In this document: in pieces, positions 8,028 to 58,143 of the stretch
Layout of the letters: each line of letters opens with the position of its first letter
How positions within the stretch are numbered: the first letter of the stretch is position 1
From: an uncultured Nitrososphaerales archaeon
GTDB taxonomy: Archaea > Thermoproteota > Nitrososphaeria > Nitrososphaerales > Gagatemarchaeaceae
Length of the DNA stretch: 64,000 nucleotides
Direction of reading: 5' to 3'
NCBI GenBank assembly: GCA_963706445.1
Contig: OY970160.1
Coordinates: forward strand, 1,088,001-1,152,000
Position numbers and translations under genes: made by a program
Notes under the pieces: generated by a model
Told to the model about the DNA's origin: nothing
Databases searched by the model: none
What the model saw: only the letters and a program-made list of their open reading frames with translations

Positions 8028-8960
8028 ATGGCACCGTCGCTGGAAGCGGTCAATGTCACGAAGAAGTTTGGAAGTTTCACAGCCGTCAATGACCTCAACC
8101 TGAAAATCACGGGCGCGAAGTGCGTAGGGTTCCTTGGGCCGAACGGGGCCGGTAAGACCACCACCATGAAGATGTTCACGGGCCTCATAACAGCCACGAA
8201 GGGAAATACCCTGATCAACGGGGTGGATGTCAGGAAGGACAAGAAGGCGGCCCTCGCTTCCTGCGCCACACTCATCGAGACGCCCGAGATCTACCCGTCC
8301 CTCACTCCGCGGGAAGCCCTTACGATGCTCTGTGAAATCAGAGGGGTGTCCAAGGAGGACAGGAACAAGAGAATCGACGAGGCGCTCGCTCAGGTGAAGA
8401 TGCAGGACTGGGAGGACAAGAAGACTGGAAGCTTCTCCAAGGGGATGAAGCAGAGGGTAAATGTCGCGTCTACCTTGCTGAGCGACCCGGAGGTCATCAT
8501 ACTCGACGAACCCTCGACCGGGTTGGACCCCAGGGGGATGAGTGAGGTCAGGGATATTGTCAAATCACTTGGCAACAGGCTAGTGTTCATGAGCTCCCAT
8601 CTGCTGGCCGAGGTGACTGAGGTGTGCCAAGAGGTTGCGCTCATAGACCACGGGAAACTGCTGGTCTACGACACGATAGACAACATCACGTCGAAGTTCG
8701 CGAGAGGGAGCGGGGAGGTCAGGATTGGTTTCGCCAGGCCCGTAGACCTTCAGACCGGGACGAAGATTTCCAACCTTGCGGGGGTCACCTCGTACAGCAG
8801 AGTCAGCGACAGGCAGATGGTCGTCAAGTTCGACCCCACAATAATCCCACAGGAGAAGCTCTTCGAGACGATAGCCGGACTAAAGGCCGGGGCCCAGACC
8901 ATCGAGTCGAGCTCAGGGCTCGAAGACGCTTACCTTAGCCTGGTAAAGGAGACGCTCTAA
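8028..8960 (+). CDS. ABC transporter ATP-binding protein
   Basis: GPNGAGKTT, FSKGM, DEPSTGLDP. Confidence 0.95.
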   Translation: MAPSLEAVNVTKKFGSFTAVNDLNLKITGAKCVGFLGPNGAGKTTTMKMFTGLITATKGNTLINGVDVRKDKKAALASCATLIETPEIYPSLTPREALTMLCEIRGVSKEDRNKRIDEALAQVKMQDWEDKKTGSFSKGMKQRVNVASTLLSDPEVIILDEPSTGLDPRGMSEVRDIVKSLGNRLVFMSSHLLAEVTEVCQEVALIDHGKLLVYDTIDNITSKFARGSGEVRIGFARPVDLQTGTKISNLAGVTSYSRVSDRQMVVKFDPTIIPQEKLFETIAGLKAGAQTIESSSGLEDAYLSLVKETL

Positions 8961-55341: not shown

Positions 55342-56055
55342 TTGGGCTCGTTTTTCGCGGGAGTAAAAGCAGGGACGCTGGGAGGCATAGTGTACGTTGG
55401 AGGCATGGCCATCTTCAACGTCATACTCCTCTATGCTCTCGAGCCCCAAGTCAACGCCCTGATAACGAACCAGTACTACAGCGTCTGCACCAGCGGTTCA
55501 ACCATCGCGCAGTGCTTCGGCTCGGTGATCTCCGTCGACGTCCCCTACGTTGCTTTCGTAGCTTTCTTCATCGCCCTGATCTACTCCGGGGTCTTCGGCA
55601 TGTTCTACGACTCCTTGCCTGGCAGGACGTACCTTTGGAAAGGGGAGTTCTTCGCAGCCATCATAGGCGCGAATCTAGCCATCTTCGGGTTCTCGGGGTT
55701 CTACTTCTCCACAGAGTCGACCATCGCCACCAGCGCGTTCGTCATAGGATGGACCGTTGTGTTCGGCTATTTTCTGGGAGTCCTCTACAGGAAGTACACG
55801 AGGGTCATTCAGATCTCCAGCGAGAACCCCGCCCTCCTGAAGGTCTTCGTAGACCAGAGGGACGTCACGGGGAAGACGAGGACGTTCGCCGCGACTTCTA
55901 GCCACAAGATCAGGGGGGAGGTGGCGAGCGATGCGTCTTTCAAAGAGTGGGCGGCAAACGGTGGGATCACACTGGAAGACCCGAGGTCCTTCGACACCAC
56001 ATTCGAAGTAACCGGAGATGGGACCTTGAGAGGAAAGGTCGGCACTAAGTATTAG
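55342..56055 (+). CDS. hypothetical membrane protein with soluble beta-rich C-terminal domain
   Basis: Four hydrophobic segments, then F.EW...GG...DP....T. Confidence 0.7.
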   Translation: MGSFFAGVKAGTLGGIVYVGGMAIFNVILLYALEPQVNALITNQYYSVCTSGSTIAQCFGSVISVDVPYVAFVAFFIALIYSGVFGMFYDSLPGRTYLWKGEFFAAIIGANLAIFGFSGFYFSTESTIATSAFVIGWTVVFGYFLGVLYRKYTRVIQISSENPALLKVFVDQRDVTGKTRTFAATSSHKIRGEVASDASFKEWAANGGITLEDPRSFDTTFEVTGDGTLRGKVGTKY

Positions 56056-56076
56056 CCAAATGCCGTATTGTTGAAT

Positions 56077-56466
56077 CTATGGGTGATTCTCCTTGACCGT
56101 TGCATCGCGGTTGATTGCCTCTTCAAGCATCGCTAACCACTTGTTCTGACCCTGAATCCCGACTCCCGCGACCTGTGCGGGAGTCTGCCCATCCAAAGCC
56201 TGATGAGGCTTGACGAAATTGTAGTGAATCCTCGCTCCTTCCGCGAGAGGGGTCTTCATGGTCTTCCACCCTCTCTGAACCTTGACCCGTTCCCTCAGAG
56301 TCCCGTTGAGCCGTTCTATGCGGTTGTTGTTCGAGTCCTTTTTCCTGACCCCTGCCTTTGCTATGTGATTGATTCCTTCCCTGAAAGCCTGTCTGACCGC
56401 TTCGGGATAGCCCCTCAGAGCGTCCGTGTAGATTCGTTCAGGTTCCGAACCCTTCGAGGCCTTCGT
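56077..56466 (-). pseudogene. DDE transposase (IS6-like) C-terminal remnant
   Basis: Frame reads PERIYTDAL.GY...NNNRIERLNGTLRER...HYNFVKPH.AL.G.TPA; N-terminal half and first Asp are missing. Confidence 0.88.
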
Positions 56467-56537
56467 TCAGCCAACCACGCCTCGTGGTCGGCTCTCTCGT
56501 CAGCGTCCAATTCGTAGCGGAGTTGTTCTGTGCTCAT
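56415..56537 (-). CDS. small chimeric ORF at the deletion junction (MSTEQLRYELDADERADHEAWLAE...)
   Basis: ATG about 25 nt downstream of a TATATA box; runs out of frame into the transposase remnant. Confidence 0.35.
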   Translation of the reverse strand: MSTEQLRYELDADERADHEAWLAERRPRRVRNLNESTRTL

Positions 56538-56540
56538 ACC

Positions 56541-56595
56541 TGACGGTATATTACTGCCAGTATATACGAGTTTACTTGACGGTAATATCCCATCA
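56541..56595. promoter_or_regulatory. two 19-bp imperfect palindromes (TGACGGTA-N3-TACCGTCA-like) in a divergent promoter
   Basis: 56541-56559 TGACGGTATATTACTGCCA and 56577-56595 TGACGGTAATATCCCATCA; TATA boxes at about 56561 and 56605. Confidence 0.6.
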
Positions 56596-56629
56596 GGGAA
56601 GGAGTTTATATACTGTTAATATGATACCG

Positions 56630-56818
56630 ATGGGTATGGAAATCACGCTCAAAGGATGGAAGTGCGAGAGGTGCGGTCATGCGTGGGTTCCCGTGTCCAC
56701 GGAGAAGCCCCGTGTCTGCCCCAAGTGCAAGTCCCCATACTGGGATACACCGAGACGTTCCGAGGTTGGAGCGAAGTCGGTCAGGGAGCAAAAAGTCAGG
56801 GAAGGGAAGGTCAGATGA
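56630..56818 (+). CDS. small Zn-ribbon protein, putative DNA-binding regulator
   Basis: CERCGHAW.P....P..CPKCKSPYW..PR. Confidence 0.8.
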   Translation: MGMEITLKGWKCERCGHAWVPVSTEKPRVCPKCKSPYWDTPRRSEVGAKSVREQKVREGKVR

Positions 56819-57258
56819 ACGGGAAACCCAAGCGAGCCTTCACCAAGTCGGACGACTACGCCACCGTCCACGCGGACGGGGTGATAGTGCAGAACACGGT
56901 CTCTGACTCCCGTCTCGTCTTCTACCAACGGGAGTTGGAGCCTGACGATTCCAAGGAGAAGTTCACGACCGACCCAGAGCGCATCACCTTGAAGTTCGAA
57001 GTCAGAGTTCCGCGCTTCATCCTCTATGGCCTTGCGAAGAACATCGAAGCCGACACTACATTCAGGGGCGAAGTCGGGAACCTATCGCGGGACGCTGATG
57101 AAGACCGCGAAGTGCTCGAATCGTGGAACGCCCTGACGGACAAATTGGACAGGGTGGTGCTCGACGATGAAGGCAAGGACATCGGCGACATCCACCGCGC
57201 GGACTTGAAGGCAGAATACGACAGGCTCGCAGGCCACAAACGAAACAGGGCGCAGTAA
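56815..57258 (+). CDS. passenger protein, DUF3467-like
   Basis: ATGA overlap with the upstream gene; Y..VHADG.......D.RL.F...EVRVP pattern. Confidence 0.55.
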   Translation: MNGKPKRAFTKSDDYATVHADGVIVQNTVSDSRLVFYQRELEPDDSKEKFTTDPERITLKFEVRVPRFILYGLAKNIEADTTFRGEVGNLSRDADEDREVLESWNALTDKLDRVVLDDEGKDIGDIHRADLKAEYDRLAGHKRNRAQ

Positions 57259-57259
57259 G

Positions 57260-57505
57260 ATGCAGAACACAGAGAGATGCCCTAAGTGCAACGGTCGGCT
57301 CATCGCCGAGGAACTTCCCGAACATGTCTGCATGGGGTCGGTCAAGGAGACGCTCCTGTTCCCGTGGGGAGAGGCATATGCCTCGGACGGCCTGAGGTGG
57401 TATCGCTGGTTCCCATCACCTGACGCGCAACATCCGCAGAAATCACCCAGAGATTCAACACTACGCCAAATGCCGAAGCCCTGCAAAGTGTTTGCCGTAT
57501 TTTAA
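57260..57505 (+). CDS. small Zn-finger-like passenger protein reading through the right TIR
   Basis: CPKC...IAEE...HVC; stop codon lies in flanking DNA. Confidence 0.55.
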   Translation: MQNTERCPKCNGRLIAEELPEHVCMGSVKETLLFPWGEAYASDGLRWYRWFPSPDAQHPQKSPRDSTLRQMPKPCKVFAVF

Positions 57506-57532
57506 ATACCAGAGAGCGAACCGTCGTCCAAG

Positions 57533-57685
57533 TTGCTCCTTACCGCTGCCCCAGAGGAGGAATACTGCATCAAGTCGCAAAAGCATTCCTTGGCGAAGCA
57601 GGCGAAGTACGTCATCTGCTACAGGTGTATGTTGATGGTAGGGAGAGCCAAAGAGCTTCACCTCGGAAGCTTGCTTGACTACTAA
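57533..57685 (+). CDS. unlisted 50-aa ORF (MLLTAAPEEEYCIKSQKH...ICYRC...GSLLDY)
   Basis: TTG about 30 nt after TTTAAATA (57501); Cys/His-rich; fills the gap up to the convergent GNAT stop. Confidence 0.45.
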   Translation: MLLTAAPEEEYCIKSQKHSLAKQAKYVICYRCMLMVGRAKELHLGSLLDY

Positions 57686-58143
57686 GGACTCTTTCCCAAC
57701 AGATTCGTCAGCGCCCTGAACCCTCGCTTCGCGTAGAAGCGGTTCGCGATTTCGTTCTGAGCCGGGACGTCGGCGACGATGATCTGTGCCCCCATCTTCT
57801 TCAGCTCGCCAGATGCCTGCTGGACCATATCGTTCCCCAGGGCCTTCCTCCTATACTCAGGGAGGATGTAGAAGTCGGTGATGAGCCCCTCCTGGTGCGG
57901 CTCGTAGAAGAGCCTCGTGTGCATCTCGGCTCTTATCACCCCGACGACCTTCTGCCCTTCGACGGCGACCAGAAGTAGTTTGTCTGGTGCGTCGATTGAC
58001 GCTGTGACGTGCTTTTCCGCCCTGGCCTTGGCGTCGGAGACCACGGCGAAGAGAGGGTCGAACTCGTTGTTCAGCTTCTTTGTCCGGACTATCAGGTCCG
58101 CAACCGAGCCGAGGTCTTCCTTCTTGGCGCGACGAATCTGCAT
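57682..58143 (-). CDS. GNAT family N-acetyltransferase
   Basis: IRRA..ED, YILPEYRRK.LG, N..A..FY.K.GF. Confidence 0.88.
   Translation of the reverse strand: MQIRRAKKEDLGSVADLIVRTKKLNNEFDPLFAVVSDAKARAEKHVTASIDAPDKLLLVAVEGQKVVGVIRAEMHTRLFYEPHQEGLITDFYILPEYRRKALGNDMVQQASGELKKMGAQIIVADVPAQNEIANRFYAKRGFRALTNLLGKSP

What the first reader, a model, noticed from the sequence alone, without database searches (positions are those of the whole stretch)
56056..57473. Cargo-carrying, internally deleted IS6-like transposon with intact TIRs and 8-bp TSD
Seen: left TIR CGTATTGTTGAATCTATGGGTGATT versus reverse-complemented right TIR CGTAGTGTTGAATCTCTGGGTGATT, with CCAAATGC duplicated on both sides. The insertion begins right after the stop codon at 56055. 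Inside are only the C-terminal half of a DDE transposase and an opposite-strand three-gene operon. Known: IS6 elements make 8-bp TSDs, are normally transposase-only and usually begin with GG. Inference: a member of a little-described archaeal passenger-gene transposon family; this copy is non-autonomous.
Basis: partly seen in the sequence, partly recalled or inferred. Interest (0 to 1): 0.78.

Follow-up and report, generated by a model that had tools for sequence, protein, structure and literature searches.

The report
Deleted archaeal IS6-like transposon copy
This is a real but crippled copy of a jumping gene from a large, apparently undescribed archaeal branch of the IS6 family, and its three "cargo" genes are a conserved companion operon of that branch, not random passengers.

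Summary
A 1,402-bp element (56064-57465) has 25-nt inverted ends (23/25) abutted by CCAAATGC on both sides, and same-genus genomes carry the uninterrupted site.

It holds only the last ~129 of ~391 transposase codons. The SWIM finger, zinc ribbon, HTH and first catalytic Asp are gone, as is the end of a small upstream ORF, so about 0.8 kb is missing.

The host is a Nitrososphaerota (Thaumarchaeota) MAG. I delimited 51 related elements by GGTTCTGT-type ends plus a perfect (one 7/8) 8-bp duplication. Complete ones measure 2.0-5.7 kb and occur in Nitrososphaerota (including cultured Ca. Nitrosotalea devanaterra), Bathyarchaeia, Thermoplasmatota and Archaeoglobaceae.

The operon (Zn-ribbon ORF1, ORF2, C2HC ORF3 reading out through the right end) recurs next to intact transposases of two subclades. 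It is therefore a lineage module, function unknown.

One third of the elements sit 3-12 nt upstream of a TATA box; this copy sits 27 nt upstream.

The scan had already found this family elsewhere in the same genome (e1-5606796). Novelty: new variant of a known kind. Interest about 0.5.

The parts
56056..56063 (.). Left copy of the 8-bp target-site duplication, CCAAATGC
   Evidence: One similar copy is present at the empty site of relative G009.
56064..56088 (+). Left terminal inverted repeat (IRL), CGTATTGTTGAATCTATGGGTGATT. It has an outer TGTT core and an inner GGGTGATT motif. The transposase stop codon (56077-56079) lies inside it.
   Evidence: The inner motif is shared with G006a, G006c, G019a, G043a and G065a.
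56077..56466 (-). Transposase remnant: 129 codons plus stop, still an open frame. It corresponds to residues ~263-391 of the 391-aa relatives. It keeps the second Asp (IYTD) and the Glu (NNRIERLNG) but lacks the first Asp, HTH, zinc ribbon and SWIM finger.
   Evidence: Translation. PF13610 E 4.7e-8 and NF033587 E 6.4e-8. 72.8% identical to the G006a transposase by tblastn. Alignment A2.
56466..56537 (-). First 24 codons of the conserved upstream ORF (MSTEQLRYELDADERADHEAWLAE). After the deletion joint near 56460-56470 the frame runs on out of register to a stop at 56415.
   Evidence: Intact 31-34-aa upstream ORFs coupled by ATGA to the transposase are seen in E1, E2, G006a, G006b, G006d, G019a and G043a.
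56538..56620 (.). AT-rich divergent promoter region with two imperfect palindromes sharing TGACGGTA and a TTTATATA box at 56605-56612.
   Evidence: Inverted repeats I2 and I3; sequence. The promoter role is inferred.
56621..56818 (+). ORF1, a 60-65-aa four-Cys zinc-ribbon protein (the start is probably ATG 56636, leaderless). Presumed DNA-binding regulator.
   Evidence: Only sub-threshold zinc-ribbon Pfam hits. Relatives in the same position in L112 (Ca. Nitrosotalea devanaterra), L113 and L124.
56815..57258 (+). ORF2, 147 aa, no known family. The model shows a three-stranded beta-meander plus a three-helix bundle.
   Evidence: 41 cluster representatives at E<=1e-3. AlphaFold pLDDT 91.8. No informative Pfam, PDB or fold match.
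57260..57505 (+). ORF3, 81 aa, with a C2HC zinc knuckle (C7, C10, H22, C24) and a small beta-sheet. Its tail is encoded by the right end and the duplicated target, and its stop lies in flanking DNA inside the neighbour's TATA box.
   Evidence: Alignment A4. jackhmmer finds relatives as the terminal gene in 15 of 51 elements. Model pLDDT 70 with a disordered tail.
57441..57465 (-). Right terminal inverted repeat (IRR), CGTAGTGTTGAATCTCTGGGTGATT on the minus strand.
57466..57473 (.). Right copy of the 8-bp target-site duplication, CCAAATGC
57501..57508 (+). Context: TTTAAATA box of the downstream small conserved ORF (57533-57685), 27 nt beyond the duplication.
   Evidence: Box conserved in relatives (alignment A1); offsets.

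Best explanation
Window 56064-57465 is a non-autonomous, internally deleted copy of an archaeal IS6-like transposon.

Inferred history: a parent of about 2.2 kb inserted between the stop codon of a membrane-protein gene and the promoter of a small downstream gene. A DDE transposase made a staggered cut, which duplicated 8 bp (CCAAATGC). A later deletion of about 0.8 kb removed the end of the upstream ORF and transposase residues 1 to about 262. That took out the SWIM finger, zinc ribbon, HTH and first catalytic Asp, so the copy can no longer move itself.

The three plus-strand genes are not accidental cargo. They are a conserved accessory operon of this transposon lineage, laid out as a small DNA-binding protein, then an ORF2-family protein, then a C2HC ORF3-family protein that is translated out through the right end. 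I infer that ORF1 represses the divergent promoters through the TGACGGTA palindromes. I also infer that ORF2 and ORF3 act in transposition control or target choice; their biochemical function is not shown.

Shown: the ends, the duplication, the empty site, the deletion, the family and the recurrence of the operon. Inferred: the order of events, the regulation and the role of ORF2/ORF3.
For: Ends and duplication:
- 23/25 TIR with 0 chance matches expected, and the 8-mer abuts both tips.

Empty site:
- In G005, G009 and G017 the orthologous stop codon is followed by about 38 nt and the conserved TTAAATA box. G009 has one target-like copy, GGCAGATGCCGAATTCC, against the window's GCCAAATGCCGAAGCCC.

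Remnant:
- PF13610 33.7 bits (cut-off 27). 72.8% identical to the 391-aa G006a transposase.
- It aligns to that protein's last 129 residues (A2).
- The element is collinear with G006a over positions 13-268.
- The frame is still open over 129 codons, which suggests a recent deletion.

Family:
- 51 elements delimited by TIR plus an 8-bp duplication (perfect in all but G019a, 7/8). All are 2.0-5.7 kb except this copy and G006c (1,287 bp), which also has a broken transposase.
- 565 tblastn-confirmed transposase stretches in genome contigs.

Operon recurrence:
- L124: ORF1 48%, ORF2 55%, ORF3 68% identity, next to an intact N-terminal transposase part.
- L125: MazE-like protein, then ORF2 37%, then ORF3 48%.
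- G043a: 392-aa transposase, a small 59-aa first gene (not scanned), ORF2-like and ORF3-like genes, duplication CTCGAAGT.
- L112 in Ca. N. devanaterra: ORF1-like, ORF2-like (29% over 87 aa, E 1e-4) and ORF3-like genes.
Against: - No full-length copy of this exact IS (same ends) was found in the genome or by exact-end search of metagenome and viral contigs. The parent is therefore inferred from relatives that are 67-73% identical in protein.
- The tips are CG, whereas IS6 ends are defined by GG (PMC7986276).
- The full-length relatives score just under the NCBIfam IS6 cut-off: 119.3 and 89.7 against 125.
- The function of ORF1-3 is untested. ORF2 and ORF3 have no informative family or fold match.
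- ORF2 relatives were found in only 2 of 55 same-genus genomes with this query.
Confidence: 0.85

Rival explanations
1. The three genes are true passenger cargo. On this reading they are host-benefit genes captured by chance, with no role in the element's life cycle.
For: - The middle and left-hand gene content of family members varies a great deal. Examples are a membrane protein, a DUF5678 plus aspartyl-protease pair, and a large 658-aa protein in L113.
- ORF2 relatives are rare in the genus: 2 of 55 genomes with this query.
Against: - The same gene order recurs at the same place, divergent from the transposase and ending in the right end. It does so in elements whose transposases share only about 30-35% identity.
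- ORF3 relatives are always the last gene and read through the IRR.
- Every contig I inspected with an ORF2 relative also carried an ORF3 relative next to it.
Confidence: 0.1
2. The element is a recombinant. It would have formed by recombination between two different family members, a G006a-type left end and an operon from an E1/E2-type element. The 'deletion joint' would then be a recombination joint.
For: - The remnant is 70-73% identical to G006a-type transposases but only 42-45% to E1/E2.
- By contrast, 33 nt at the upstream-ORF start are 88-94% identical to E1/E2 of the same genome.
- The closest ORF1-3 operon (L124) is attached to an E1/E2-type transposase, 57-58% identical to E1/E2.
Against: - Both ends are of one type: 23/25 to each other, and both carry the GGGTGATT inner motif of the G006a group.
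- G006a-type elements also have upstream ORFs and ORF3-type terminal genes (G043a, G006c, G065a, G019a).
- Outside the 33 nt there is no DNA similarity to E1/E2 in the operon.
Confidence: 0.12
3. The copy is still mobile as a MITE-like element. It would be driven in trans by another family transposase, or it would be kept because its operon is useful.
For: - Both ends are intact and all three ORFs are uninterrupted.
- An 88-bp MITE of the family, with an 8-bp duplication, exists in the same genome.
- A second deletion derivative, G006c, also keeps its ends plus ORF3.
Against: - It is single-copy in the genome.
- The only intact family transposases in this genome (E1, E2) belong to the other subclade and have different ends that lack GGGTGATT.
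Confidence: 0.1
4. It is not a mobile element at all: the inverted and direct repeats arose by chance around ordinary genes.
For: None beyond the fact that an 8-mer repeated twice in 64 kb is unremarkable on its own.
Against: - 0 chance matches are expected for the 25-mer pair.
- Relatives have the empty site.
- The remnant carries an IS6-type DDE domain.
- Fifty further elements share the same end motif and 8-bp duplication.
Confidence: 0.01

Closest known systems
IS6/IS26 family insertion sequences, especially the long zinc-finger clades h and i (Clostridia) of Varani et al. 2021 (PMC7986276)
   Same: - A DDE transposase whose best family hit is IS6 (NF033587 and PF13610).
- An 8-bp target duplication.
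- Short ends with the TGTT core, and GG tips in relatives.
- An N-terminal zinc-finger extension, as in clades h and i.
   Different: - The host is archaeal, not clostridial.
- The transposase adds a SWIM finger and is preceded by an ATGA-coupled upstream ORF of about 31 aa.
- Complete elements are 2.0-5.7 kb, against 0.7-0.9 kb for typical IS6.
- They carry a divergent multi-gene operon, and their last gene is often translated through the right end (32 of 51).
- Full-length scores fall just under the NCBIfam IS6 cut-off.
- This copy has CG tips and lacks two thirds of its transposase.
ISDsp3 (Dehalococcoides sp. BAV1), the only IS6 member listed with a passenger gene (PMC7986276)
   Same: An IS6-type element that carries a non-transposase gene inside its ends.
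   Different: ISDsp3 has one hypothetical gene, is single-copy and is bacterial. Here there is a recurrent three-gene operon in many archaeal lineages.
Classical archaeal IS6 elements (clades Ai-Aiv: Halobacteria, Thermococcales, Sulfolobales)
   Same: Archaeal hosts and IS6-type chemistry.
   Different: Those are the shortest IS6 members (700-750 bp), encode only the transposase and have no zinc-finger extension (PMC7986276). The elements here are three or more times longer.
Thaumarchaeal IS-like transposons surveyed by Krupovic et al. 2019 (PMC6563490)
   Same: The same host phylum, and IS6 is among the 13 IS families counted there.
   Different: That survey describes IS-like transposons as 1-2 genes. 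It states that passenger-carrying transposons had not been detected in archaea.
MITEs and other internally deleted non-autonomous IS derivatives
   Same: Intact ends and duplication, with no working transposase.
   Different: Most MITEs are non-coding and multi-copy. This copy is single and keeps a complete three-gene operon.

Membership tests
IS6 family | DDE transposase of IS6 type (HTH plus DDE-K/R catalytic domain) | tested here: inconclusive
   The remnant hits PF13610 DDE_Tnp_IS240 at 33.7 bits (cut-off 27), and NF033587 is its best NCBIfam hit at 32.6 bits (cut-off 125). Intact relatives score 119.3 (E2) and 89.7 (G006a) against 125, covering profile positions 1-201 of 202 (E2) and 2-186 (G006a). 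The result is IS6-like but just below the curated threshold.
IS6 family | 8-bp target-site duplication | tested here: met
   CCAAATGC flanks both ends. Of the other 50 delimited elements, 49 have a perfect 8-bp duplication and one has 7/8. Those elements were selected by that criterion.
IS6 family | Short (15-20 bp) terminal inverted repeats with GG tips and a cTGTt motif (PMC7986276) | tested here: inconclusive
   The TGTT core is present and the ends match at 23/25. However, both tips of this copy are CG, not GG. Most relatives start GGTTCTGT.
IS6 family | Transposase-only element of about 0.7-0.9 kb | tested here: not met
   Complete family members are 2.0-5.7 kb with two or more extra genes. 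This copy is 1.4 kb with three extra genes.
IS6 family | Replicative cointegrate (copy-in) transposition | not testable with these tools
   This needs a transposition assay.
Non-autonomous deletion derivative of an IS | Both ends and the duplication retained, with transposase catalytic or DNA-binding parts missing | tested here: met
   The remnant aligns only to residues ~263-391. The first Asp, HTH, zinc ribbon and SWIM finger are absent (A2). No other copy of this transposase type is in the genome.
tIS (an IS carrying passenger genes unrelated to transposition) | Internal genes with no role in transposition | tested here: inconclusive
   The genes lie inside the ends. Their recurrence in fixed order and position across divergent elements argues that they are a core accessory module. 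No functional test was possible.

The most novel reading that the evidence does not exclude
The ORF1-ORF2-ORF3 operon is a transposon-encoded control and targeting module. ORF1 would switch the divergent promoters. ORF2 and ORF3, the C2HC protein whose tail is written by the right end, would guide the SWIM/zinc-finger transposase to the upstream edge of archaeal TATA/BRE promoters. That would explain why a third of family members sit 3-12 nt upstream of a TATA box and why they stack on one 8-bp site. It would be a promoter-directed targeting system without precedent in the IS6 family.
Probability: 0.15. Interest if true: 0.8.

Novelty: new variant of a known kind. Interest (0 to 1): 0.5.

Why it matters
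Archaeal transposons that carry more than a transposase are said to be unknown (PMC6563490), and the IS6 family is treated as essentially transposase-only (PMC7986276).

This copy is itself a dead relic. Even so, it led to a widespread archaeal IS6-like lineage, with 565 confirmed transposase stretches and 51 delimited elements across at least four archaeal phyla or classes. The lineage has these features:
- a SWIM/zinc-finger transposase;
- a translationally coupled upstream ORF in several members;
- a conserved companion operon of unknown function;
- in most members, a last gene that is translated across the element's end;
- a statistically strong habit of landing just upstream of TATA boxes.

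One member lies in a cultured ammonia oxidiser (Ca. Nitrosotalea devanaterra), so expression could be checked experimentally. For genome annotation, the result shows that these small ORFs and the orphan transposase fragment belong to one mobile unit.

Tried and rejected
- Exact-end search (GTANTGTTGAATCTNTGGGTGATT) in metagenome contigs gave one hit, in an AT-rich contig with no transposase or ORF1-3 similarity. I treat it as chance or a coding coincidence. Viral contigs gave none, so no full-length twin of this IS was found.
- The word-based homologue search for ORF3 found nothing. Relatives appeared only through jackhmmer on the collected elements.
- ORF2 had no Pfam family and no PDB sequence match below E 0.01. 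Foldseek on the PDB found nothing at E<=0.001. The VIA-align wide search returned only generic three-helix bundles, Z up to 8.3. The atlas search returned archaeal hypotheticals and DUF3467 at TM about 0.5. I draw no function from any of these.
- The ORF3 model (pLDDT 70) gave no Foldseek match at E<=0.001.
- Rfam found nothing in 55800-57800.
- GC content does not set the element apart from the host: 0.51-0.59 against 0.58.
- The genome-wide duplication-first scan also returned a 7.4-kb pair at 1039277-1046667. It lacks the GG..TGT tip and I treat it as chance. An inverted pair at 738862/742072 is an inverted gene duplication, not element ends.
- My strict regular expression for the upstream ORF found it in only 8 of 51 elements. 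By eye it is present in 8 of the first 12. I therefore do not claim it is universal.
- The sigma-70 promoter scanner was not used, because the host is archaeal.
Full report
**1. The observation**

Reading 55900-57650 shows the stop codon TAG at 56053-56055. It is followed by CCAAATGC and then CGTATTGTTGAATCTATGGGTGATT. At the other side the sequence is AATCACCCAGAGATTCAACACTACG, followed by CCAAATGC.

The repeat finder reports this as the longest inverted pair in the region (I1). A degenerate 25-mer search with up to 3 mismatches finds exactly these two sites in 64 kb, with 0 expected from shuffles. CCAAATGC occurs only at these two places. Its count alone is not significant. An identical 8-mer abutting both tips of a fixed inverted pair has a chance of about 4^-8.

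The direct repeat can be stretched to 11 nt, but only the 8-bp reading keeps both ends in register.

**2. What lies inside**

On the minus strand an open frame of 129 codons (56080-56466, stop inside the left end) reads ...IYTDALRGY...NNRIERLNGTLRER...HYNFVKPHQAL....
- It hits PF13610 DDE_Tnp_IS240 at 33.7 bits (cut-off 27).
- Its best NCBIfam hit is the IS6 model NF033587.

Upstream, in another frame, lies MSTEQLRYELDADERADHEAWLAE....

On the plus strand three tightly packed ORFs follow an AT-rich region with palindromes:
- ORF1 is a four-Cys zinc ribbon.
- ORF2 is 147 aa.
- ORF3 is 81 aa. It runs through the right end and the duplicated target and stops at 57503-57505, in flanking DNA.

**3. 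It is an insertion**

A 3.5-kb DNA query against 40 relatives found both flanks adjacent in several same-genus genomes. In the alignment (A1) G005, G009 and G017 go from the orthologous stop codon through about 38 nt to the conserved TTAAATA box. G009 has one target-like copy, GGCAGATGCCGAATTCC, against the window's GCCAAATGCCGAAGCCC. Removing 56064-57473 from the window restores that arrangement.

**4. What is missing**

The genome (1.82 Mb, one contig) has two intact relatives 0.9 Mb away, E1 and E2, with transposases of 377 and 376 aa. Same-genus genomes hold closer ones. The remnant is 72.8% identical to the 391-aa G006a transposase and 66.7% identical to that of G043a. The element is collinear with G006a over positions 13-268.

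In the protein alignment A2 the remnant covers only the last 129 residues. It keeps the second Asp and the Glu. It lacks the first Asp (TWHADE), the HTH region, an IS1/IS1595-type zinc ribbon and a SWIM finger (PF04434 hits the E2 transposase, and the CxCPD...CKH motif is conserved in alignment A2; NF050000).

Intact elements also carry an upstream ORF of 31-34 aa (for example MSQDEIRAEMGDEEYFERLEAR...) whose stop overlaps the transposase start. The window keeps its first 24 codons. The deletion therefore runs from about codon 25 of that ORF to about codon 262 of the transposase, roughly 0.8 kb. The parent would have been about 2.2 kb, like G006a (2,189 bp) and G043a (2,118 bp).

The remnant frame is still open, which suggests that the deletion is recent (inference).

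**5. The family**

A script looked for identical 8-mers flanking inverted ends. It delimited 51 elements:
- three in this genome;
- nine more in same-genus genomes;
- the rest among 79 loci returned by a profile scan of one genome per species.

Record titles place them in Nitrososphaerota (Nitrososphaerales, Nitrosocosmicus, Nitrosotalea including cultured Ca. N. devanaterra LN890280), Bathyarchaeia, Thermoplasmatota and Archaeoglobaceae. Transposase-only matches also came from Methanosarcinales and Methanoperedens records.

Same-genus genomes G006 and G016 correspond to records titled 'uncultured Nitrosopumilales archaeon' and 'uncultured archaeon MFD01231.bin.c.7'. The host is therefore a Nitrososphaerota MAG lineage.

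The ends read GGTTCTGT..., often followed by TCTnnGGGTGATT. Lengths are 2.0-5.7 kb, except for the window's copy (1,402 bp) and G006c (1,287 bp), which also has a broken transposase. The window's ends fit the consensus apart from the CGTA tips. Both ends share those tips, so they were probably already present in the parent (inference).

**6. The 'cargo' is a conserved module**

- jackhmmer over all ORFs of the 51 elements finds ORF3 relatives in 15. In every case it is the last plus-strand gene and crosses the right end.
- Alignment A4 shows invariant C7, C10, H22 and C24. The tail ...KSPEDSTEP is simply the translation of the inverted repeat.
- ORF1 relatives sit first in the operon in L112 and L113.
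- ORF2 has 41 cluster representatives in 1.8 billion proteins.
- The contig of the best one (L124) carries ORF1 (48%), ORF2 (55%) and ORF3 (68%) next to the N-terminal 293 residues of a transposase.
- The next one (L125) has a MazE/AbrB-type protein, then ORF2, then ORF3.
- G043a has a 392-aa transposase, a small 59-aa first gene that I did not scan, ORF2-like and ORF3-like genes inside ends, and the duplication CTCGAAGT.
- The N. devanaterra element has ORF1-like, ORF2-like (29% over 87 aa, E 1e-4) and ORF3-like genes.

The operon occurs with both transposase subclades (G006a-type and E1/E2-type, about 35% identical to each other). It is therefore either old or exchanged between elements.

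In 32 of 51 elements some ORF of at least 50 aa is translated across the right end.

**7. Function of the operon**

This remains open.
- The ORF2 model is confident (pLDDT 91.8) and shows a beta-meander plus a three-helix bundle. No Pfam, PDB-sequence or fold match is informative.
- The ORF3 model is moderate (pLDDT 70) and has no match.
- I infer that ORF1 regulates the divergent promoters through the TGACGGTA palindromes (this is also the subject of scan note e1-5606924).
- I infer that ORF2 and ORF3 act in control or target choice.

**8. Target choice**

I followed a lead from the earlier scan report on E1/E2 (e1-5606796) and tested the 51 elements. Sixteen have an outward-facing TATA-like box starting 3-12 nt beyond the duplication. 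About 1.2% would be expected for random positions in the same loci (binomial P about 8e-19). The elements are related, and the pattern was chosen by me, so the P value overstates the case.

The window's copy sits 27 nt upstream of the TTTAAATA box of a small conserved ORF. That is the same side and sense, but further away than is typical.

**9. Comparison with what is known**

Varani et al. 2021 (PMC7986276) define IS6 by an 8-bp duplication, GG...TGTT ends and a transposase-only structure. They list one element with a passenger gene (ISDsp3). They describe archaeal members as the shortest, and place zinc-finger transposases in clostridial clades h and i.

Krupovic et al. 2019 (PMC6563490) count IS6 among thaumarchaeal IS. 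They describe IS-like transposons as 1-2 genes and state that passenger-carrying transposons were not detected in archaea.

On this basis the lineage is IS6-like in chemistry and in its ends. It differs in size, gene content, transposase architecture and host. Intact members score just under the curated IS6 threshold. I could not query ISfinder.

**10. Verdict**

The copy itself is a dead, single-copy relic. Its value is as a further, independent witness of an apparently undescribed archaeal IS6-like lineage that this scan had already met elsewhere in the same genome.

Interest is 0.5. Novelty is 'new variant of a known kind'.

Noticed in passing
G000:C1:1458951-1459054 (same genome, outside the window): An 88-bp MITE of the same family: GGTTCTGTTAACTT ends, only 88 bp from tip to tip, flanked by the 8-bp duplication GGCGGCCC. 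Its ends match those of full elements in G016 (L093) and a Bathyarchaeia MAG (L106).
   Followed up: partly
L117:2891-8982 (Bathyarchaeota MAG CAVXDO010000002.1): Two elements appear stacked on one target: TTGAATAT, a 3,503-bp element, TTGAATAT, a second element of about 2.6 kb, TTGAATAT. This is inferred from two outer pairs that share the left end; the internal junction was not read. If correct, it is the same arrangement as E1/E2 in this genome (GGAAAACA three times, L006:3790-10306). L115 shows a similar stack of an 84-bp end-pair plus a full element on ACCGCAAG.
   Followed up: partly
L026:4735-6021 (G006:C1): A second deletion derivative (1,287 bp, duplication TCTCATGA). Its ends are the closest to the window's (GGTTCTGTTGAATCTTTGGGTGATT). 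It has a broken transposase but an intact ORF3-type terminal gene. Both short derivatives kept ORF3.
   Followed up: partly
window 57533-57685: A small 50-aa ORF (MLLTAAPEEEYCIKSQKH...CYRC) with a TTTAAATA box at 57501-57508. Both are conserved in same-genus genomes. ORF3 of the transposon ends inside this TATA box, so transcription out of the element could interfere with it.
   Followed up: no
L006:6823-7648 (element E2, same genome): The left-hand cargo of E2 is a DUF5678 protein (PF18929, E 5.5e-14) next to a retropepsin-like aspartyl protease (PF13650, just above the cut-off).
   Followed up: partly
G000:C1:537113-538008 (same genome): A fourth, more distant IS6-like transposase (33% identical to E1/E2). 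It is split over two ORFs (102 and 215 aa), with a small downstream gene overlapping its 3' end.
   Followed up: no
L123:4895-4918 (metagenome contig Ga0214919_10005304): An exact 24-nt match to the window's left end (GGTATTGTTGAATCTATGGGTGATT, with a GG tip) in an AT-rich contig that has no transposase or ORF1-3 similarity. It may be chance, a coding coincidence or a solo end.
   Followed up: partly
window 56504-56539 versus L006:5749-5782 and 8927-8959: Thirty-three nt around the upstream-ORF start (GAAGCGGAGTTGTTCTGTGCTCAT) are 88-94% identical between this element and E1/E2. Their transposases are only 42-45% identical. This could be a conserved regulatory site or a trace of exchange between elements.
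   Followed up: partly
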